A DNA stretch of 64,000 bases. Source: Eledone cirrhosa. Its lineage: Eukaryota. The stretch covers positions 26,784,001 through 26,848,000 of the forward strand of contig OZ024763.1 in assembly GCA_964016885.1 (NCBI GenBank). Reading direction: 5' to 3'. The notes under the pieces were generated by a model, which ran no database searches, had not been told where the DNA came from, and saw only the letters and a program-made list of their open reading frames with translations. A program made the translations under genes and the position numbers. Shown here in pieces: positions 3,042 to 63,312 of the stretch; within the stretch, counting starts at the first letter, position 1; every line of letters starts with the position of its first letter.

Positions 3042-3149
3042 CGATCATAGAGACCACATGATCGTTATATTGTATATCAATCTCTTTATAAATACATATA
3101 TATATATATATGAAATATAAGAATCAAAGAACTGTTCAAAACATTATTG

Positions 3150-3196
3150 TGCTTACAGCTGTTTCCTCCAAACCGAGGTTTGGATTCTTCGGAGCA
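3150..3196 (-). ncRNA. Inverted copy of the PLE hammerhead
   Basis: Reverse complement of 6387-6433, inside the inverted repeat. Confidence 0.78.
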
Positions 3197-3727
3197 ATTT
3201 ATTAATGCATGGACGGTTATATGACCTCCTTTTCAGCCGAGAGACATACCAATACATATTCAAACATTGATACATATTCAAACATTGTGGGTCAACATTC
3301 ATTACAAAATTTAGAGTGGCAGTACACACTTCGAGATTACATTTATATTAATAGGTACAATCAAAAATCAAAGATATAGGTTAAAGTACAACATGAAGAT
3401 AAGTGGTTATATAGTGCAAATGTTATATGTGTGGCACGCATGTGCGTCTTGTTTATATAGTGTGGCAGAGAGATATGTGTGGTAGAGGCACTTAGGTAGG
3501 TAAATAAGAGTGTTAGGTTGGTAGATCTGGTGGCAAAGTCTTTATATGATTGATGTAGTCTGTGTGTGGGGAAATATTATAAATATTAAAGATAGTGCAA
3601 GCATTAAAAGTGTTATAAGTATTGGAGATGCACAACGCAGGGATGTCAAGTAATTCATGTACTTCGGCATTTTCATGGTCAAGGGAGTGTATATTTCGAT
3701 TATATGCCTTTCACATAATCCACGACA

Positions 3728-4943
3728 GCCTAATGAGAAACTTATTTACGTAGATACCAAGTCTAATCACCCTAGATCAATATTAAACTCTATCTCTAAG
3801 GGGGTGTCCAATAGAATCTCTAGTCTGTCCTATGACGCAAACATATTTAGCAAAAACTCACAATATTACAATCAAGCATTAGCTAGCTCCGGCCATAATA
3901 TAGAAATAGAGTTCCTACCTAAGAAAACACATAGCTACAACATCATCTCGCACAACATGTCCATGAGGAAATCTAATAATAGGAATAGCAACCACAAGTA
4001 CACCAAAGCGGAGGGTGCCACCGGAAGTAACCATTACCATGGAAACTACTGTGAGGCCTTAGGAGGAAGCAACACACCAAACACTAAAAGCAAAAATAGA
4101 AGAAGAAATAATACATTTTTCAACCCTCCTTTCAACCTAAATGTCTCCACCAACATACCTAGGGCTTTCTTCTCACTACTAGATAAAAACTTCCCTCTAG
4201 GACACAAGTACCACAACCTCTTAAACAAAAACACCATTAAAATCTCATACTCTACGACGCCTAACTTAGCATACCACATAGCTAGCAGCAATAATAGTAA
4301 AATTAGTTCTTACTTCCAACAAACAAAATCACAACGGGATGCAAACCCTCTAAATACCACTGTAGCAAGCAACAATAGCAACGGCAGTAACAATAGAAAT
4401 AACACTAGTATAAGTAATAACACCAGGGTTGTCAACCTGAACACCCAAAATCCTATATCCACCACACAGACTTCCGCATTGCATTATAACCAGCGGACTA
4501 ACGCACAGAATAATTGTAACTGTAGAGCTAATAGAACCTGCCCCTTAGATAAAAAATGCCTAACCAAGGATGTCATATACTCATGCACAGTCACGACTAA
4601 TAACTCTTCAGAAACCTATGTAGGCTCCACTTCTAACTGCTTCAAAATTAGATATAACTCGCACATCCACTCGTTCAAAAAGCACAGCCTAGCCAACTCC
4701 ACCTCACTTTCTAGCTACATACACTATCTAAAATCTAAAAATAAACCATACACACTCAAATGGGAAGTGATAGGCAGCGCGACCTCGTACAAACCACCTA
4801 ATAAATTCTGTAACCTCTGTATACTAGAGACACACAATATTATCTTCTCCAACCGTAACCTACTTAACAAAAAATCTGAGGTGTTTGCAACTTGCCAACA
4901 CCGCCTCAGACATTCCTTCCAAAACTTTAAGCCCTATATATAG
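3728..4943 (+). CDS. PLE polyprotein C-terminal part: RT thumb, Cys-rich linker and GIY-YIG endonuclease (5'-truncated)
   Basis: Motifs: PNEKLIYVDTKSNHP, FFNPPF, CNCRANRTCPLDKKC, DVIY...YVGST..CFKIRYNSH, CNLCILE, LLNKKSE. The first ~24 aa of the listed ORF (3657-3727) come from the inverted repeat. Confidence 0.9.
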
Positions 4944-6386
4944 CAATGTCGGACTGGAACCTAACACCACATCTAGCATCAAACACCAGAGACACACCCT
5001 ATACTACATACCCAACACTAGCTGATCCATTATAACACAAACAACGACATCCCTCTGGAACCCTTCGCAGGGAAAATACCCATTTATACCTCTACGGCAG
5101 GTGTGACAACATCCACCCACCTGGACGGCACTACACCGCTCTAAGGGTAATTTGAGCATGAATTGATCGGTTGGATGGTGTTGGGCAGAGGAAACACCTT
5201 CCTTAGACAGATGTAAAATGATTTAATCGAGTAGCGCTGTTGACCAGTAGGACCGGGCTGCTGAGCGCAGTGAGTGAATGCAATGCAACTGCCGTGCGGG
5301 TTGTACGTATATGGATGATCTGACGGTCAGAGAGGGGTCGCGAGGACTGCGGATTGACCTTTGGCCTGCCTGGGGACGATTATCTTTCGACATCCAATGT
5401 AGCAAGCGATGACCCAGATCTTACCAGAGATCATTGGGTCCTGAAGCAATCCTGCAATCACCGCGCCTGGTCATATGAGCAGACTACAACCACAGAGATC
5501 ATTAATTTAGAATCCTCGCTCATCATCTATAATTTCCATTTGTAGCACCTTAAGATGGGTTAATCCACCTTAATAATAATATGATCACCTTCAGCATAAT
5601 TTAGTTAAACTACTCTATAGTTAGTGCACTTTATGCTTTAAAAGTCTCTCTTGGAAGGTGCACCTCACCATAGAATTTAGGGTCCATATTGGGACACATT
5701 TTAATGGCTAGATATAGAAACCCCAGAGTTACCTCCCCGCATGCATTAACTCCCCTTAGCCACACACACACTTCCGGTATTCAATGGCGTCTCTCGAAAC
5801 GTAACAACCTCCTGTATCGAACTAAAGAACACCAGACTACGATCTCTAACTGGATTGTCGTGGATTATGTGAAAGGCATATAATCGAAATATACACTCCC
5901 TTGACCATGAAAATGCCGAAGTACATGAATTACTTGACATCCCTGCGTTGTGTATCTCCAATACTTATAACACTTTTAATGCTTGCACTATCTTTAATAC
6001 TTATAATATTTCCCCACACACAGACTACATCAATCATATAAAGACTTTGCCACCAGATCTACCAACCTAACACTCTTATTTACCTACCTAAGTGCCTCTA
6101 CCACACATATCTCTCTGCCACACTATATAAACAAGACGCACATGCGTGCCACACATATAACATTTGCACTATATAACCACTTATCTTCATGTTGTACTTT
6201 AACCTATATCTTTGATTTTTGATTGTACCTATTAATATAAATGTAATCTCGAAGTGTGTACTGCCACTCTAAATTTTGTAATGAATGTTGACCCACAATG
6301 TTTGAATATGTATCAATGTTTGAATATGTATTGGTATGTCTCTCGGCTGAAAAGGAGGTCATATAACTGTCCATGCATTAATAAAT

Positions 6387-6433
6387 TGCTCCGAAGAATC
6401 CAAACCTCGGTTTGGAGGAAACAGCTGTAAGCA
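6387..6433 (+). ncRNA. Minimal type I hammerhead ribozyme of the PLE (CCGAAGA core variant)
   Basis: TGCT-CCGAAGA-a-TCCAAAC(ctcg)GTTTGGA-g-GAAA-C-AGCT-GTA^AGCA. Stem III is palindromic (ACAGCTGT) and stem I is TGCT/AGCA. Confidence 0.8.
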
Positions 6434-6637
6434 CAATAATGTTTTGAACAGTTCTTTGATTCTTATATTTCATATAACTGCTCTGTAAATCATCTGATGT
6501 TTTTACATTGAGCTACTTAACTTACTGGTAATAAGGTAGTAATACATTACTGCCTACCACTATTTAGGGTGTGTGTAAAATACTTACAACTGCTTAAGGT
6601 TTTGTGTTTACATAACCATAAATAGTATAACTAATAC

Positions 6638-7076: not shown

Positions 7077-7489
7077 ATTACTATATTCAATACTACAACG
7101 AAGACATAACTCGGAGACACGCAAGGACATGTTCAACGAAACACGTGTCTGCGATTCTCCGTGTTATGTTTTATTGTAGCATTAAGGGACGTGGCATGCT
7201 GGGACACGTTCTCAGCCTCTAACATAGTCGCTTCAACCACAAACCCCCTCCTTAATATGTACACATGTACGCCATGGGTAGAGTGTAGGAATTTGTTTTC
7301 TAAATAGAAAAGTATAAGTGACTTCGAAGTTGCAGTCATGCCGCTTCATCTGGCTAGTAGAAGTGAGCTAGAATAGCTCTCCCAGCGCGTCTCTTTCAGC
7401 GTCCTCCGAGGGAAACGCCTTCTCTGTTTTGTCCGCTGGGGCCGCGGGGCGGCCAGCGCATGGTGTATTTCCAGAGTACTCGATACATG

Positions 7490-7620
7490 GGGTAGTAGAG
7501 TATTGTTATATAAAAGAGTCAGGCAGGCCCCGACGGTTAAGCTCTTAGCGTTTCACCAGCTAGTTCCAGTTTGGAATTAGCTATTGAAACGGCAAGAGCT
7601 CAGCCGTCCGGGTCCCGACT
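7490..7620 (-). repeat. Diverged copy of the palindromic HHR-derived repeat family
   Basis: cccgacgg..aagctc..gtttc..agctagttcc|ggaattagct..gaaacggc..gagctcagccgtc, similar to 8941-9051. Confidence 0.65.
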
Positions 7621-8704: not shown

Positions 8705-8900
8705 TATTTATAACTGTATTTTTAACCGTTGGTCAATCAATGATAAACATTGATTGCCAAATAAATTAACTATGGAGATATAAAAGATACAGAAGCGAAA
8801 ACCAACAAAACAGTGAGTGTGTTCTGTTAATATTTCTGGCAATATTATTACATGACCCTTTCCCAAGTATAACAATATTTGTTTCGACACACGATTTCAT
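8705..8900 (-). repeat. Dispersed repeat (probable PLE 3' fragment), also at 60974-61145 (+)
   Basis: Shared tattgttatacttggg..gggtcat..taatattgccagaa..taacagaacacactcactgttt..ttggttttcgcttct. Both copies are next to (TA)n. Confidence 0.7.
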
Positions 8901-8940
8901 ATCAAAAACCTTGCAAAACAAATATATATATATATATATA

Positions 8941-9130
8941 TAGGAACCAGTAAGACCCCGACGGCTGAGCTCAAGCCGTTTCGACGGCTAATTCGGAGAA
9001 TTAGCCGTCGAAACGGCTTGAGCTCAGCCGTCAGGGTCTTACTGGTTCCTATTACCCACTCTACTACCCTAAGTATTGAGTACTTTGGTGCGTTATGGCC
9101 CACCTAGTTCCTTACCACATTTCCTTCGTT
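8941..9130 (+). mobile_element. Short non-autonomous element with a ~110-bp palindrome containing the 3' half of a hammerhead
   Basis: 8941-9051 is a near-perfect palindrome with GAAA-CGGCT..AGCCG-TC-(A/G)GGG. The tail ccactctactaccctaagtattgagtac...ttccttcgtt is shared with 34598, 41733 and 49394. It sits in (TA)n. Confidence 0.8.
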
Positions 9131-9295
9131 ATATATATATATATATATATAACCAAATATTAATATGGTTCATTGATTATTCAATGAATATAGTTTTACG
9201 ATAGATTAAAAGCACTCTACTACAAAGAAGTTTTCTGGAGTTATTATTATTCAGAATAATAATAAATGAAGACATTCACATAATCAAAATATATG

Positions 9296-9357
9296 TTTTA
9301 TTATATATATTTCGAAGGTACTGTGCTGTTTTTTCAGTACGTCCTCGTCAGATAAAA
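9296..9357 (-). ncRNA. Type I hammerhead
   Basis: Reverse complement: TTTTAT-CTGACGA-GGA.GTACTG...CAGTAC.TTC-GAAA-TATATA-TA^ATAAAA. Confidence 0.75.
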
Positions 9358-9666
9358 TACATGAATTGATGTAGGACATACCTCAACCGTCTTGATAGTT
9401 CAATTCCAGTATTGGCAGGGATTTATTACAACAAATCTCAACATTTATATACCACAAATAATAACATGATATACTTAAATACCACAAATAATAACATGAT
9501 ATACTTAAATACCACAAATATGGTATACTTAAATCTTCTTTAAATTTAAGTATATCATGTTATTATTTGTGGTATATAAATGTTGAGATTTGTTGTAATA
9601 AATCACTGCCAATACTGGAATTGAACTATCAAGACGGTTGAGGTATGTCATACATCAATTCATGTA

Positions 9667-9728
9667 TTTTATCTGACGAAGACGTACTGAAAAAACAGCA
9701 CAGTACCTCCGAAATATATATAATAAAA
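9667..9728 (+). ncRNA. Type I hammerhead
   Basis: TTTTAT-CTGACGA-..GTACTG...CAGTAC..-GAAA-TATATA-TA^ATAAAA. Confidence 0.72.
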
Positions 9729-9929
9729 CATATATTTTGATTATGTGAATGTCTTCATTTATTAATATTCTGAATAATATATATATATATACACAGATAA
9801 ATCTACCAATCAATGGTAGGGTCTAAACCGTATGAAGAACTCAATGTAATCTGTATGTAGATGTCGTGAATCAAAGTTTAAAATACAAAATTTTCAACGA
9901 TATAATTCTTTGGATACAGAGTCAAAAAC

Positions 9930-22162: not shown

Positions 22163-22205
22163 TCAGGGGGGCTCAGCTAAACTATGGCCGCGGTTGTTTT
22201 TGTTG

Positions 22206-22272
<67 letters not shown>

Positions 22273-24790
22273 TGTGGTGGTGATTCACGATTTCTTTAAG
22301 TAACATCTCAAACGTTGGTCGTTTCGCCGTTGGACTTCTTGCATCTTTGCCAGCGCCACCTGTCGGTTCCTGTTCTACCATTGGCCGGAGTTGCCGGAAG
22401 GAGGAGGAGGAGCTTCCGGAGTGTTCTGCTTCCGAAGGCGTGACGCTCGAAGAAGAAACGTCGGTCACTTGACTACACGACGTTGGTGTCGTCACTTCCG
22501 CCGCGTCGAGAAGGTGGCTCGAGTCGCGGTTAGGGTTCGACGATGGTGTCGATGCGACATTCTCGTATTTCACCACCGTTTCCTCGCTGTTTGATGTCGA
22601 ACGAGGCTGGAAAGTGCTGCACGAGTCCCCCAGCGTCCCGTAAGTGTCACTCGCCGTGCCGCTTGTATTTGCGACGCTCTGCGACGACGCAATCGATCCT
22701 AAACTGTCGTTCAAACCTTTCCCCATAAACGTTCTCAGTTCCAACTTCCGCCGTCTGTAATTATCCGACGGCGACAGATATTTGGAGCTTTCCGGATCTG
22801 GGCTGAAGGTTTGTAAGATCCTTTCGTCGCTGGGACAATGGAGTGATACCTCTTTGGTAATTGTACATATTTCTGCTGTAGTGGTTGTGGTTGTTGCTGT
22901 AGTAGTTGTTGCCGTTGTTGCTGCTGCCGCCGTCATTGCTGTTGCTGAGCCTTCATTATCGTCAGAGCTTCCGCTTCCTGTGTCGGCCATTGATAGCGTC
23001 TTTGTTGGACGTTTCCACACCCGATTTTGTCGTTGGAGATTTGTCTTCAGAATTGGTTTCGTCCGGTTTTGTTTCTCTTCGCCGGATGTCGCTGCTGATC
23101 GATTATCCGAACCCGTTTCGTTATTCGCATTATTCGAAGTCGCCACTATCTTCGAATCTCTTTTATTGGTGTCAGAGATTTTCAATAGCGATGGTTTTTC
23201 ACAGCGATGCATATCTCTTCCTGTTCCCATTCCACTGGGTTTGTCTTCTAGGCGTTTGATTGTCAGTTCCAGTGCGTTTAACTTAGATTTGGAATGTCGG
23301 TTTAGCGCCTCGTATAGTGTCTCCTCGCCACAGCTAACTGTCGATGACCTTCTCGAGGCTTCCAGACATGTCACGGACGAGACGATAGTCGGTTCTTTCA
23401 TGTTTGAACATTCTAAGTTGCTGTTGGCGTGGAGAATAAATTTTTTGTTGCTCCCCCTCTCTTTATCTTTCTCTTTCCTTTTCACAATGTCTTCAATGCT
23501 GTTTGTATTTTTGGTAAATTTATTCGGTGCCAAAAGGTTGAAGTACGTCTTTCGTGTGGCGTCTCGAGAAGAAACGCTCTTTGAGTAACGCAAGAACGAA
23601 CGACGCCAGTGTTTTTCTGACTGATTTTTCACTGAGTTTTCGAAGATATTATCGGCGGAACTGTTGGAGTAGAGTTTGGAATGTTTGTTATTGGAATTCG
23701 TTGCCGGACTAGAAGATGGCGTTACTTTAATACTGTTCGACGAGGATTTAGTGTCTTTCAATTTAGCACCGATCGAACCTTCCAGATTGCTTCTCGATCT
23801 CCGCAACGACTGCTTCAGGCGACAGCTAAGATTGCGAATTATCGCTTTAGTTTGCATCAGGGAAGACTCCATATTTTCTTTAAACGCTTTGTTCGGACTG
23901 TGTCCGACGGACGTGAACTGTTGTATCGACTCGACCGAGAGAGACTCAAGAGGCAACGGTTCGAGGCTTTCGACGCTGTATTTCGATGGCGTGTCGTCTT
24001 CCTTTATCGGCGTTGAAGCTTTCCTCAACAAAACGGGAATGGTGCCTCTTTCGACGTTTAACGAACCCCTACGTGAACGTGACGGCAAACTTTCCATGGC
24101 GATCGACTTATCTGAATGGTTTATCTCCAGGCGTGGAGTTCTACCATTTGAACCTGGGAATGGTTTAACGGAAGATTCCTGCTGACACTGGACTGTAACG
24201 CTTTCCAAAAGAGTAAAACTTTCATCCGAACATAAACTCAACCGAGAGTTCAGCGACGTCCGCTGGTAGTCCAAGCTGCGGTCAGATTTCGCTCGGATCT
24301 CGTCTACCAACGACCTGGCTCCTATATTAGTGAAGTTGTCCAAAGACTGGACGCAGTCCACCGGACGGTTGCATCTGCTGTCAGGTGTTGTTAAGTTTTG
24401 ATCCGCCGAGACTAGAACCGACTCTGTTGGCAAGCTGATGTCGTCAGCCAAGGTATCTCCTACCAGTTCAGCGTTTATGGCCGTCCGCGGACGTCTGAGG
24501 ACGATCCTGCTACTATCGCGGTTTGGGTCGCCCCGAAGCAAACCATTCTCATTGGTTTCCTGTGTGATGACGCTGCATTTGTTACGATGACCGGTCAGAG
24601 GACAGCCTATTGTAGCTCGACGCTCCGTTTTACGTTTCCTTCGGTGACCAGTCAACGGTCTATCGCCCCTGGGTGAAACGGCGACCGGGAGGTCTTCAGT
24701 TCGGTGTCCGGTTAGAGGATTTACGTTATTTCGGGGACAAACGGTCATGTGATTGTTCCGCATGTGGATGACTGGTAGGTCCATGGACAT
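22163..24790 (-). CDS. Uncharacterised 875-aa Ser/Thr-rich, probably disordered protein (large single coding exon)
   Basis: A 2.6-kb stop-free, non-repetitive, CpG-rich frame in an otherwise microsatellite region. An in-frame stop lies 7 codons before the ATG. It has three PLTGHR motifs and poly-T/poly-N runs. No domain recognised. Confidence 0.75.
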
Positions 24791-24944
24791 TTTGCTTGGT
24801 TTATTGGTTTATGTAGTTTCCTTGGCAATAAAGACTGACCAATGTCCAGTTAACGTCTGGACACCTGTCCTTTCCCGCCAACGACCATTTACAAATTTTC
24901 ACAGATTTTTATATTTTTATCTATTTATTTATTTATTATTAACC

Positions 24945-34509: not shown

Positions 34510-34597
<88 letters not shown>

Positions 34598-34601
<4 letters not shown>

Positions 34602-34719
34602 AAAAAGTATGACCCCGACGGCAGAGCTCATACTTTTTCCTATTTCCCACTCTACTACCCTAAGTATTGAGTACTCTGGTGCGTTATGGTCCATCTGGTT
34701 CCTTACCACAATTCCTTTG

Positions 34720-34721
<2 letters not shown>
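34598..34721 (+). mobile_element. Palindromic HHR-derived repeat family copy with a shorter hairpin
   Basis: taggaaaaagtatga...tcatactttttccta plus the shared tail, inside (TA)n. Confidence 0.75.
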
Positions 34722-41732: not shown

Positions 41733-41842
41733 AGCTCTGCCATCGGGGTCTTGAACATTTTCCTAATACACACTCTACTACACTAAGTATTGAGTACTCT
41801 GGTGCGTTATGGTCCACCTGGTACCTTACTACACTTCCTTCG

Positions 41843-41844
<2 letters not shown>
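41733..41844 (+). mobile_element. 5'-truncated copy of the 8941 family without the palindrome
   Basis: Shared tail sequence with (TA)n flanks. Confidence 0.75.
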
Positions 41845-44997: not shown

Positions 44998-46090
44998 GTT
45001 TAGCTCAGGATGGGGGTGTTTAGCTCAAGATGGGGGTGTTTAGCTCAGGATGGTAGTGTTTAGCTCAAGATGGGGGTGTTTAGCTTACGGTAGTGGGGTT
45101 TAGCTCAAGATGGGGGTGTTTAGCTCACGGTAGTGGGGTTTAGCTCAGGATGGTATGTGCGTGTATACATGACATGTATATTTCATGTATACACGCACAT
45201 GCCATCCTGAGCTAAACTCCACTACCGTGAGCTAAATACCCCCATCTTGAGCTAAATACCCCCATCCTGAGCTAAACACTACCATCCTGAGCTAAACCCA
45301 ACCACCCTGAGCTAAACACCTCCATCTTGAGCTAAACACCTCCATCTTTAGCTAAACACTACCATCCTGAGATAAACACCACCATCTTGTGCTAAATACC
45401 ACCATCCTGAGCTAAACACTACCATCCTGAGCTAAACACCTCCATCGTAAGCTAAATGCTACCATCTTGAGCTAAACACCACAATCTTGAGCTAAGTACC
45501 ACCATCTTGAGCTAATCATCACCATCTTCAGCTAAACGCTACCATCTTGAGCTAAATATCACCATCTTGAGCTAAATACCGCCATCTTGAGCTAAACATC
45601 ACCATCTTCAGCTAAACACTACTATCTTCAGCTAAACACTACCATCTTGAGCTAAACATCACCATCCTGAGCTAAGCACCACCATCCTCAGCTAAACACT
45701 ACCACCCTCAGCTAAACATTACCATCTTGAGCTAAACACCTCCATCCTGAGCTAAACACTACCATCCTGAGATAAACACCACCATCCTGAGCTAAACAAC
45801 ACCATATTGAGCTAAACACTACTATCTTGATCTAAACACTACCATCTTGAGCTAAACACCACCATCTTGAGCTAAATACCACCACCATCTTGAGCTAAAC
45901 ATAACCAGCTTCAGCTAAACGCTACCATATTGAGCTAAATGTTACCATCTTGAGCTAAATATCACCATCTTGAGCTAAACATCACCATCTTCAGCTAAAT
46001 GCTACCATTTTGATCTAAACGCTATCATCTTGAACTAAATATCACCACCTTGAGCTAAATACCACCATCTTGAGCTAAATATCACCTTCT
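44998..46090. repeat. 20-bp minisatellite (gctaaacaccaccatcttga) arranged as two head-to-head inverted arrays
   Basis: 44998-45172 is the reverse complement of 45183 onward. About 45 units lie on the right arm. Confidence 0.9.
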
Positions 46091-49393: not shown

Positions 49394-49587
49394 AACGAAG
49401 GAAATGTGGTAAGGAACCAGGTGGACCATAACGCACCAAAGTACTCAATACTTAGGGTAGTAGAGTGGGTAATAGGAACAAGTAAGACCCCGACGGCTGA
49501 GCTCAAGCCGTTTCGACGGCTAATTCTGTCACAGAATTAGCCGTCGAAACGGCTTGAGCTCAGCCGTCGGGGTCTTACTTGTTCCTA
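49394..49587 (-). mobile_element. Palindromic HHR-derived element (8941 family)
   Basis: Reverse complement of 8941-9130, with the palindrome at 49473-49587 and (TA)n on both sides. Confidence 0.82.
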
Positions 49588-49712
49588 TATATATATATAT
49601 ATATATAGTAATAATAAAAATTTGAAGACTAAAATCCAAAGAGGGCTCGATAAGGATAAATATATATCAAATATATAAGAACTGTAGAGCAAATATATAT
49701 ATATATATGTAT

Positions 49713-51934: not shown

Positions 51935-52282
51935 CAAATAGTGTATATGTATATATGTGTGTGTATATGTGTATGTATATATTGTGGTGTAGCTGTGTGT
52001 TTATGTACGAATAAGTATATATATGCGTGTCTATAGATGTGCCATATATTGAAATATATTTTTATATGTGTGTGTATATAGATGTAAGCATTTAATAAGG
52101 TATAGCCCTCAGTATGTGTATAGATGTGTGTATATCGAAGTATAGTTGCATGTGTGTGTGTGTATATATATATATATATTTGTGTGTGTGTGTGTGTGTG
52201 TTGTAGTATAGCTGTATGTATGTGTGCCTGTGTGTATATATATATGTACGAATAGGTGTATATATGAGTGTTTATGGATGCT

Positions 52283-52370
52283 AAGCTCAAGCCGTTTTGA
52301 CGGCTAATTCTGGACAGAATTAGCCGTCGAAACGGCTTGAGCTCAGCCGTCGGGGTCCTACTCGTCCCTA
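52283..52370. repeat. Partial palindrome of the 8941 family
   Basis: agctcaagccgtttt.acggctaattctg|cagaattagccgtcgaaacggcttgagct. Confidence 0.8.
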
Positions 52371-52592
52371 TATATATATATATATATTATATTATATATA
52401 TATTATATTATATATATATTTATATATATATATATTATATATATATATATATTTTTATATATATTATATATATATATATATTATATATTATATATATATA
52501 TATATTTTTTTTTATATTATATATATATTGTCCCAAGACTCTAAAACCATCAACACCAAAAACACAGAGCTGGCATATCTAAGAACTGACTA

Positions 52593-61524: not shown

Positions 61525-63312
61525 ATGGCCGAAGCTTCTTCACCAAAATTCGAAGGAGGAAAGGGGAAGATGAACTTACAGCTTCCCCCTGCCACTGTCA
61601 CAGTAGCAGAGGTCAAGAAGATAGGTCAGCCAGAGGAAGAATTCTCTCCACCTGTTAACCGACAACTTGACGTTACCATGGCAACAACCCAAAGAACCAA
61701 CAGCAACAACAACAACAATGCGACGGTAGAAAACAACACCAATAACAATAACAATAACAATAACAACAACAAGACCAATAACGGTGACAACAACAACAAT
61801 GATAACAACAACACCACCAACGACAACAACAACACAAACAAACAAAATTTCTCCTTCGCCGAGACGACAAGGAAAACCCTCGACTATCTGCCAGTAGATA
61901 TAACAAAAGCGAAGGAGCTACTGGCGGATGCGAAAAAATATATAGTGTACGGGGAAAATGGTTCATTCACAATCCATTCCCCCCCGGAACTAAAAAGCCA
62001 GAGACTCCTAAACACGGTCATGTTTAGGACAATCTCGAACAAAAGTAAAAAACCAGCTCAACCATCACAGAGCGAGATAGAGCTGGTTTTAAAAGACGTC
62101 ATGAAGGACATCACCTTCATTCAGAAGGATAGACTCTACGGGAGTCTATCCATTCTCATGAAGGACAGGGACACAGCAGTGAAACTGTCCATCAAACCAA
62201 TCACATCCACCGCATACACCTTCTACCCTACGTACATGGGTAGAAGAACACAAAAAATAAAAATCCACACCATCCTGCCGATTATGGACATATGGTGGGT
62301 TTTGACAGGTTTTCTGGACCTGGAGGATGACATGCTGGTGTCCATGGGAAAGGCATCGGGTGACGCGTTCAGTGGAACGAGCCTCGAACTTGTAGTTCAA
62401 ATGAGGCCCGAAAGGATCGCCCAGATCCCTGAACGCGTCATACTGGATGATCTAACCTTCATCAACATTACCGTTGAGGGTAGACGGCCCTCGTGTTACC
62501 TCTGCGGAACCAGAGGTCACCTGAGGGCTGTCTGTCCCCAACTTAATAAGAAAACCCCAATCCTGCCTACACCACCAACAACTGCACAACCAACACAATC
62601 ACCACAACAACCACTACAAAAACAACCACCACAGCTCAAACCAAAACAAAACAATGTCCAACCCATCCCCTCCACTCAAAAAACAAAAACAATTTCCAAA
62701 ACACCCGTACCGCAAACACAACCCGAAAATATACCCCTCCCCTCCAACGCGGAAGATGACCCTAGTTCGTCGTCAGACGAGGAGGAGCACTTCCACACAA
62801 TCAAAAGAAAAAAAAGAAAACACACCTCAGACACACAAATGAAAAAAACCCCTCCCCAAAACATAACACTGACACCAACACAAAAGAGCTCACAACAGCA
62901 AACAAAAAACACCACACAAAAACAAAAACATGCATACACATACATAAATACAAGAAACAAAAAACTGTTAAACATTGTGTACAACAACAATCTAATAAAA
63001 ACACAAGGGCCTAACTTCACCCAGGCAGGGGATTTCCCCCACCTCAAAATGATTAAGGCCCCACAGGACACCTATAAAACTTTAAAAAACAATTTTAAAG
63101 AGGACGTGGGTCCCCCCTGCGTCGGGCCCATTAACCGAGTCCTCCTAAAAAACTATCCCACCCCCTCCCCAAACACCCTCACAACTCCAAGCTCCCCAAC
63201 CACACAACACACTGATGCCCCCACACTTCCACAAACCACCACCCCACCCAACAACCCATCCCCCACCCTAATGGAAATTGTGCAGCCCGATACCCGGGAC
63301 GCAGAGAGGTAA
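61525..63312 (+). CDS. ORF1 (gag-like, zinc knuckle) of an L1/Tx1-type LINE
   Basis: 595-aa open frame with the CCHC knuckle CYLCGTRGHLRAVC, SFAE and KRKKRK motifs, directly upstream of the APE ORF. Confidence 0.88.
   Translation: MAEASSPKFEGGKGKMNLQLPPATVTVAEVKKIGQPEEEFSPPVNRQLDVTMATTQRTNSNNNNNATVENNTNNNNNNNNNNKTNNGDNNNNDNNNTTNDNNNTNKQNFSFAETTRKTLDYLPVDITKAKELLADAKKYIVYGENGSFTIHSPPELKSQRLLNTVMFRTISNKSKKPAQPSQSEIELVLKDVMKDITFIQKDRLYGSLSILMKDRDTAVKLSIKPITSTAYTFYPTYMGRRTQKIKIHTILPIMDIWWVLTGFLDLEDDMLVSMGKASGDAFSGTSLELVVQMRPERIAQIPERVILDDLTFINITVEGRRPSCYLCGTRGHLRAVCPQLNKKTPILPTPPTTAQPTQSPQQPLQKQPPQLKPKQNNVQPIPSTQKTKTISKTPVPQTQPENIPLPSNAEDDPSSSSDEEEHFHTIKRKKRKHTSDTQMKKTPPQNITLTPTQKSSQQQTKNTTQKQKHAYTYINTRNKKLLNIVYNNNLIKTQGPNFTQAGDFPHLKMIKAPQDTYKTLKNNFKEDVGPPCVGPINRVLLKNYPTPSPNTLTTPSSPTTQHTDAPTLPQTTTPPNNPSPTLMEIVQPDTRDAER

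What the first reader, a model, noticed from the sequence alone, without database searches (positions are those of the whole stretch)
8941..9130. Palindromes centred on a hammerhead stem II, with copy-specific variants mirrored in both arms
Seen: copies at 8941, 49394 (-), 52283 and 7490 read GTTTC-stem-loop-stem-GAAAC-stem III-GTC, so the CUGANGA half is replaced by the reverse complement of the 3' half. Variants are symmetric within each copy: taggaacCAGtaag/cttaCTGgttccta at 8941, taggaacAAGtaag/cttaCTTgttccta at 49473, taggaaAAAGtatga/tcataCTTTttccta at 34598. The inverted arm repeatedly ends at the same cctat site and merges into (TA)n. Inference: each palindrome is made anew at insertion. 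The cDNA would fold back on the ribozyme hairpin, self-prime second-strand synthesis and join the (TA)n target by microhomology. This would be a concrete mechanism for PLE inverted ends.
Basis: partly seen in the sequence, partly recalled or inferred. Interest (0 to 1): 0.75.

Follow-up and report, generated by a model that had tools for sequence, protein, structure and literature searches.

The report
Two-armed Penelope stubs mark RNA ends
These palindromes are among more than ten thousand short two-armed stubs of a protein-coding Penelope-like jumping gene, likely made by copying one RNA twice from the two sides of a DNA break, and their inner ends pile up at the gene's likely transcription start and at the predicted cut site of its self-cutting RNA.

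Summary
The palindromes are real (10,799 by a strict pattern). They are stubs of a 3,543-bp Hydra-clade Penelope-like element (719-aa RT plus GIY-YIG ORF) whose terminal repeat holds a complete hammerhead fold with a U3-A8 core. Arms match by locus, not by side, and centres vary, so palindromes are made at insertion. The mirrored variants are mostly subfamily markers. Fold-back on stem II is not supported: the left arm is the exact complement of the right arm rather than native stem II, the tail-less arm is often the longer one, and some spacers are 0-2 nt. Best model: both ends of a (TA)n break prime cDNA on one RNA, at +61 and +139; both cDNAs run to the RNA's 5' end and are joined head to head. 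Most stop at +1 to +9, a likely start site inside loop II, which explains the missing catalytic box. In 16 of 40 shorter stubs both arms stop at or next to +42, just after the predicted cut. No RNA was tested. The scan found this before on other DNA of this genome (e1-9939475).

The parts
8922..8939 (.). (TA)n target, left side
8940..8994 (-). tail-less arm: reverse complement of parent positions +7 to +61; outer end = inferred reverse-transcription start site 2
8995..8996 (.). copy-specific centre (GG), inferred head-to-head join of two cDNA ends near +1
8997..9052 (+). tailed arm, parent +6 to +61: 3' strand of stem II, GAAA box (9010-9013), stem III with GAGCTC loop, GTC (9030-9032; predicted cut after 9032), 3' strand of stem I
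9053..9130 (+). 78-nt tail, parent +62 to +139; outer end = inferred reverse-transcription start site 1
9131..9151 (.). (TA)n target, right side
49394..49588 (-). second complete stub, CAAG subfamily, centre TGTGACA
52280..52371 (.). stub of the CGAG subfamily; one arm ends at +61 in (TA)n, the other is cut short at +37, tail missing
34597..34721 (+). asymmetric stub, AAAAAG subfamily: tail-less arm reaches about +28, tailed arm starts about +46 to +49
41733..41844 (+). one-armed stub, +30 to +139, between (TA)n runs
7471..7614 (-). old diverged two-armed stub; long copies with the same stem III loop type carry a canonical CUGAUGA core
   Evidence: L307
6756..6809 (-). decayed tail-less arm next to (TA)n

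Best explanation
The palindromes are short insertions of a Hydra-clade Penelope-like retrotransposon, likely made when both ends of a break in (TA)n prime reverse transcription on the same RNA at two fixed sites (+61 and +139), both cDNAs run to the RNA's 5' end, and the two are joined head to head. SHOWN: the parent (3,543-bp tandem unit, 719-aa RT plus GIY-YIG ORF); outer ends at +61 and +139; one end of each kind in about 97% of stubs; arms alike by locus; inner ends piled at +1 to +9 and at +42; a complete hammerhead fold with compensatory changes in stem II. INFERRED: +1 is the transcription start (TTAGT/TCAGT initiator-like site inside loop II), so RNA that starts there lacks the catalytic box and priming on its 5' copy of the repeat gives the common ~190-bp stub; +42 is the 5' end left by hammerhead cleavage after GUC in read-through RNA, giving the rarer ~115-bp stub; host end-joining supplies the fillers; a protein dimer does the double priming.
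For: Parent: a minority of copies run on upstream of +1 (2,767 matches to a 31-nt marker) into 3,543-bp tandem units with an inverted last copy. ORF motifs RWR, DKT, YRDDG, CxCx5C, VIY..YIG, CxxC, CxH. Outer ends: of 62 long-copy ends, 27 stop at +61 and 25 at +139 before (TA)n, 7 read on into the next unit, 3 lie elsewhere. Double-tailed stubs 169 and double-tail-less stubs 127 against 10,799 palindromes (patterns differ in stringency). Two cDNAs: in 10 of 20 long head-to-head junctions the tail-less arm reaches 105-2,456 nt further upstream than the tailed arm (outer end not in view for 2), in 4 the reverse, 4 lie within 17 nt, 2 are other; in 32 two-armed stubs from position-picked DNA the tail-less arm is longer by 10 nt or more in 6, the tailed arm in 1. 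Mosaic stubs with arms of two subfamilies occur in both directions, 28 and 23. One RNA: 33 of 57 arm pairs identical, 0 of 2,000 permutations as high; stubs with one arm near +1 and one at +42 number about 100-175 (11-19 of the first 100 of 911 matches, counted by eye) against about 4,100-4,500 if arms came from independent RNAs (rough). Inner ends: 23 of 32 position-picked stubs have both arms at +1 to +9; the initiator-like site is kept while the loop upstream is replaced. Cut site: of the first 40 of 1,027 short palindromes, 16 have both arms at +41 to +44 and 25 of 80 arm ends are exactly +42. Hammerhead: predicted three-way fold, 90.6% of cells paired, 26 double changes against 12.7 in shuffles, core position 7 free, positions 3/8 U-A 26, C-A 4, U-G 3, C-G 1 of 34. 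PMC11167929 shows in vitro that a PLE protein cuts and extends both strands and starts at two sites that bound the tail.
Against: No RNA or biochemical test. The fold's energy is no better than shuffles (z = -0.15) and Rfam gives no hammerhead match. Covariation rests on a few subfamily splits in stem II, and the set was picked by a pattern that fixes part of the core and stem III. 4 of 34 cores have a C3-A8 mismatch. 18 of 40 short stubs join inside stem III through 3-8 nt of microhomology or a short filler, which fold-back or later deletion explains as well. Later deletions at palindrome centres could make some of the arm asymmetry. A TATA-like box at -31 exists only in young subfamilies. 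PMC11167929 found hammerhead cleavage dispensable in vitro, no RNA reads at the cut site, and no homology between start site and target, whereas here a 3-nt match exists.
Confidence: 0.78

Rival explanations
1. Self-priming (first reader; PMC3846280): one target-primed cDNA folds back at its 3' end, copies itself to +61 and joins (TA)n; later deletions at the centre blur the symmetry.
For: Explains mirrored arms and the shared inner stop. 4 of 20 long junctions have both arms ending within 17 nt, one with a 12-nt loop. 18 of 40 short stubs join inside the stem III hairpin.
Against: The tail-less arm is the longer one in 10 of 20 long junctions. Spacers of 0-2 nt with both arms complete to +42 in 7 of 40 are too short for a priming loop. 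Double-tail-less, double-tailed and two-subfamily mosaic copies exist. Native stem II and its loop are not in the stubs. A fixed stop at +61 is unexplained, whereas a fixed start there fits PMC11167929.
Confidence: 0.14
2. The +42 pile-up comes from reverse transcriptase stalling at the base of stem III, or from a deletion hot spot, and not from ribozyme cleavage (two-cDNA model otherwise unchanged).
For: Stem III begins two bases upstream of +42. No cleavage was tested. PMC11167929 saw no reads at the cut site.
Against: The unpaired C at +41 is not copied: 25 of 80 arm ends are at +42, and the 6 at +41 all lie in microhomology overlaps. Both arms stop together, often with fillers. Stem III is 5 bp and is read through in most stubs.
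Confidence: 0.25
3. An inherited palindromic master (MITE-like or SINE-like) spreads as a unit, and gene conversion keeps the arms alike.
For: Near-constant length of about 190 bp; a few centres recur (CTGGACTG 6 times).
Against: 43 distinct centre strings among the 57 of 82 stubs where the centre could be read; each of five subfamilies checked has long copies that run upstream; no left/right clustering; long copies show the same two outer ends with no hairpin at the axis.
Confidence: 0.05

Closest known systems
Hydra clade of C-terminal-endonuclease Penelope-like elements (Craig et al. 2021, PMC8557442; passages, section 11 and supplement part 2 read)
   Same: Single ORF with RT then GIY-YIG; RWx, DKT, CxCx5C, CxxC and CxH motifs; (TA)n target; hammerhead in the terminal repeat; tandem and inverted copies.
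   Different: Unit 3.54 kb (listed families mostly under 3 kb); RWR in place of RWK; U3-A8 core and a loop II of about 32 nt (listed Hydra hammerheads have CUGANGA and loops of 3-10 nt, Hydra-1_oBim included); 78-nt tail (30-40 nt typical); more than ten thousand short stubs.
Poseidon element PAc, internal initiation (Frangieh et al. 2024, PMC11167929; parts 1-2 of 4 read, which hold the main text)
   Same: Two start sites that bound the tail; both DNA strands cut and extended; AT-rich target; predicted dimer.
   Different: That work leaves the later steps open, does not derive the inverted arrangement, and found no sign of hammerhead-cut RNA. Here the two sites are used one per DNA end in about 97% of stubs, both share TAT with the target, and a class stops at the predicted cut.
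Inverted pLTR with palindromic junction and self-priming hypothesis (Arkhipova et al. 2013, PMC3846280; passages read)
   Same: Head-to-head inverted repeat, tail on one side, palindrome at the junction.
   Different: The data here favour two target-primed cDNAs over self-priming on an antisense template.
Penelope hammerhead variants with U3-A8 (Cervera and de la Pena 2014, PMC4209133; passages read)
   Same: Type I fold, U3-A8 in place of C3-G8, G10.1-C11.1 pair, palindromic loop III.
   Different: Here stem III is 5 bp with a 9-nt loop, loop II is long and holds the likely start site, and insertions mark the cut position.

Membership tests
EN+ Penelope-like element | single ORF with RT and GIY-YIG endonuclease | tested here: met
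   719-aa ORF with YRDDG and VIY..YIG; 2,027 homologs at E<=1e-30, top hit carries PF01541. Pfam scan of the ORF itself gave no family.
EN+ Penelope-like element | tandem units forming pseudo-LTRs, inverted 5'-truncated copy, tail on one end | tested here: met
Hydra clade | DKT, RWK-like, CxCx5C linker, CxxC and CxH around E/N, C-terminal endonuclease | tested here: met
   DKT 117, RWR 37, CNCPDRSIC 572, CNLC 670, CKH 698 against PMC8557442 section 11
Hydra clade | CCHH motif absent from the endonuclease | tested here: inconclusive
   judged by eye from the translation, which has one C inside the GIY-YIG spacer; no alignment to reference endonucleases
Hydra clade | groups with Hydra RTs in a tree | not tested
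   no named reference proteins were fetched
Hydra clade | insertion into (TA)n | tested here: met
   52 of 62 long-copy ends stop at +61 or +139 before a TA run
Type I hammerhead ribozyme (parent repeat) | three stems around core boxes YUGANRA and GAAA, with NUH | tested here: met
   U3-A8 in most, CUGAUGA in the oldest subfamily; no Rfam match
Type I hammerhead ribozyme (parent repeat) | self-cleavage after NUH | not testable with these tools
   indirect only: insertions stop at +42
Type I hammerhead ribozyme (stub at 8941) | complete core | tested here: not met
   5' strand of stem I, the YUGANRA box and 5' strand of stem II are absent
MITE / inherited palindromic master | fixed internal sequence and side-specific arms inherited from one master | tested here: not met
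   centres vary, no clustering by side
Non-LTR retrozyme | tandem non-coding units each with a complete hammerhead | tested here: not met
   stubs are single and lack the core; the tandem unit is protein-coding

The most novel reading that the evidence does not exclude
Penelope-like elements insert by symmetric double priming: one protein dimer copies one RNA from two start sites, one for each end of the break, and the inverted repeat plus one-sided tail is the normal product. The stubs are a genome-wide fossil map of the element's RNA 5' ends and record that a Penelope hammerhead cuts its RNA in the germ line, with the promoter placed inside loop II so that only read-through RNA is cut.
Probability: 0.55. 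Interest if true: 0.75.

Novelty: new variant of a known kind. Interest (0 to 1): 0.6.

Why it matters
How Penelope-like elements get their inverted ends and tail, and whether their hammerheads cut in the cell, are open in the papers read here (PMC3846280, PMC4209133, PMC11167929). This family gives thousands of scored insertion events, an intact young ORF and base-exact predictions (starts at +61 and +139, RNA ends at +1 and +42), so both questions become directly testable. It also warns that such stubs can be misfiled as MITEs, SINEs or microRNA hairpins.

Tried and rejected
CUGANGA search 4-34 nt from GAAAC: 207 mixed matches and no consistent core; the gap was too short for the long loop II and the young core is UUGANAA, so it was no evidence of absence. 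Rfam on the window and on the parent repeat: no hammerhead listed (one search showed only the best 150 of 373 rows). GIY-YIG family search: the 30 loci held no parent. Pfam on three window ORFs and on the parent ORF: no family. Sequencing runs: no RNA holder listed; the four runs laid are contigs and cannot show RNA ends. My early readings as a stand-alone SINE with untemplated A tails, and as a Naiad or Neptune element, were dropped once the upstream sequence and ORF were found. A cap-derived C after +1 is not seen (A 34, G 19, C 10, T 8 of 71 ends; A is the templated next base). Directional mosaics seen in the small sample did not hold genome-wide (28 against 23). Mosaics looked more common among double-tailed stubs (6 of 50 by eye against 1 of 57, p = 0.049): weak, not relied on. 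In one search, 20 hits without a tail anchor were dropped before parsing 154 copies. Literature searches listed no paper whose title or abstract start describes double priming or insertions ending at a Penelope hammerhead cut; most listed papers were not opened, subscription papers are not held, and supplements of PMC11167929, PMC3846280 and PMC4209133 were not read.

Full report
OBSERVATION. At window 8940-9130 two 55-nt inverted arms (1 mismatch) surround GGA and are followed by a 78-nt tail, all between (TA)n runs. Six related pieces lie in the window. A strict palindrome pattern finds 10,799 places in G000, control 0. Among 30 near-identical copies the centre differs from copy to copy, and short-read contigs show many different central joints.

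ARMS. I parsed 154 tail-anchored copies (20 hits without an anchor dropped). For 57 pairs from position-picked DNA and from the palindrome search, 33 have identical arms over 30 nt; mean distance is 0.58 within a locus and 3.3 between loci, equal for left-left, right-right and left-right; 0 of 2,000 permutations reach this. Six of the 57 carry a mirrored haplotype seen at no other locus of the set. In position-picked DNA (744 kb) 32 of 43 copies are two-armed and 23 of the 32 have both arms ending at +1 to +9 of a 139-nt unit.

THE PARENT. A few copies run on upstream of +1 with shared sequence. A 31-nt marker across that point has 2,767 matches, many as facing pairs or at 3.54-kb spacing. One array gives a 3,543-bp unit with a 719-aa ORF from an ATG at +232. 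Its motifs (RWR, DKT, YRDDG, CxCx5C, VIY..YIG, CxxC, CxH) match the description of the Hydra clade in PMC8557442 (section 11); no tree was built. The listed Hydra-1_oBim has another hammerhead, so this is a different family. That the host is an octopus-like animal is a guess from repeat make-up and an earlier scan note.

THE HAMMERHEAD. Upstream of +1 lie the missing parts: ACCCC (pairs with GGGGU after the GUC), UUGANAA, and the 5' strand of stem II. The predicted fold is a three-way junction, though not more stable than shuffles. In 34 complete copies position 7 is free and positions 3/8 are U-A 26, C-A 4, U-G 3, C-G 1; the oldest subfamily, to which the 7490 copy appears to belong, has CUGAUGA. 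On 25 aligned copies 90.6% of cells pair, with double changes in stem II; the set was picked by a pattern that fixes part of the core. U3-A8 is a described variant in Penelope-like elements (PMC4209133). Position +1 lies inside loop II at a TTAGT/TCAGT site, like an initiator (recalled consensus), which is kept while the loop upstream is replaced; young subfamilies have TATTTA at -31.

TWO STARTS, TWO cDNAs. Of 62 long-copy ends, 27 stop at +61 and 25 at +139 before (TA)n; both sites share TAT with the target. Double-tailed (169) and double-tail-less (127) stubs are each 1-2% of the total, so the two sites are used one per DNA end. In 10 of 20 long head-to-head junctions the tail-less arm reaches 105-2,456 nt further than the tailed arm, which a copy of the tailed cDNA cannot do unless later deletions are invoked; 4 are the reverse, 4 nearly equal, 2 other. 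Stubs show the same (6 against 1 of 32), the window's 34598 copy among them. Two-subfamily mosaics occur both ways, 28 and 23, but are rare. PMC11167929 reports that a purified Penelope-like protein cuts and extends both strands and starts at two sites that bound the tail.

TWO RNA ENDS. A search for shorter palindromes gave 1,027. Of the first 40, 16 have both arms at +41 to +44, with 25 of 80 ends exactly at +42, the base after GUC; 7 have a spacer of 0-2 nt, too short for a priming loop; 18 join inside stem III and 6 are mixed. Stubs with one arm near +1 and one at +42 number about 100-175 (by eye), against about 4,100-4,500 for independent RNAs (rough), so both arms usually come from one RNA.

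MECHANISM. Inferred: RNA starts at +1; the protein binds the 139-nt region, which occurs at both ends of a tandem transcript; both ends of a (TA)n break prime, at +139 and +61; both cDNAs run off the 5' end and are joined. Priming on the 3' copy gives long, independently truncated arms; on the 5' copy, the ~190-bp stub without the catalytic box; on the 3' product of hammerhead cleavage, the ~115-bp stub. Fold-back may account for the stem III class.

COMPARISON AND NOVELTY. The inverted end, tail, hammerhead, (TA)n target and a self-priming idea are known (PMC3846280, passages; PMC8557442; PMC4209133). PMC13282606 (passages) and bioRxiv 10.64898/2026.07.22.740005 (part 1 of 5) added nothing specific. 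I did not find the paired use of two starts or insertions ending at the cut in the searches named under Tried and rejected. Earlier notes of this scan, seen after these results, reach the same reading on other DNA of this genome; they are not independent support.

VERDICT. Real feature; new variant of a known kind; interest 0.6.

Noticed in passing
window 3100-6500: Another two-armed Penelope-like insertion: inverted ends with hammerhead-like CCGAAGA...GAAAC at 3192 (-) and 6391 (+), and a 429-aa frame at 3654-4943 that is 34% identical to the parent's C-terminal part (E 6e-67) with asparagine-rich inserts.
   Followed up: partly
window 9200-9750: Short two-armed insertion of another family with CUGACGA cores at 9351 (-) and 9673 (+) and a 30-bp tandem repeat near the centre.
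   Followed up: no
window 8393, 8651, 18119, 18690, 34321, 59483, 61221: Several further hammerhead-like motifs of other repeat families.
   Followed up: no
window 45000-45500: Palindrome centred near 45177 whose arms are arrays of ~20-bp repeats.
   Followed up: no
window 22163-24808 (-): 881-aa open frame, low complexity, no Pfam family; probably a host exon.
   Followed up: partly
window 61525-63312 (+): 595-aa open frame with a CCHC knuckle, like a LINE ORF1 (recalled resemblance); no Pfam family.
   Followed up: partly
L237/L238 (G000:C1, about 91.489-91.492 Mb): A 55-bp piece of the parent ORF (unit 1755-1812) is repeated dozens of times at the inner end of the tandem array, as if synthesis slipped repeatedly.
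   Followed up: no
window 9018-9026 and all subfamilies: Loop III is nine bases, two free bases then the palindrome GAGCTC then A or T; it could pair two RNAs. The searches that show its constancy partly fixed it.
   Followed up: partly
L052, L057, L097, L035: Some centres hold snap-back fillers copied from nearby element or flank sequence, of the kind recalled for polymerase-theta end-joining.
   Followed up: partly
window 8810-8910: A different very high-copy short repeat lies just left of the focal stub.
   Followed up: no
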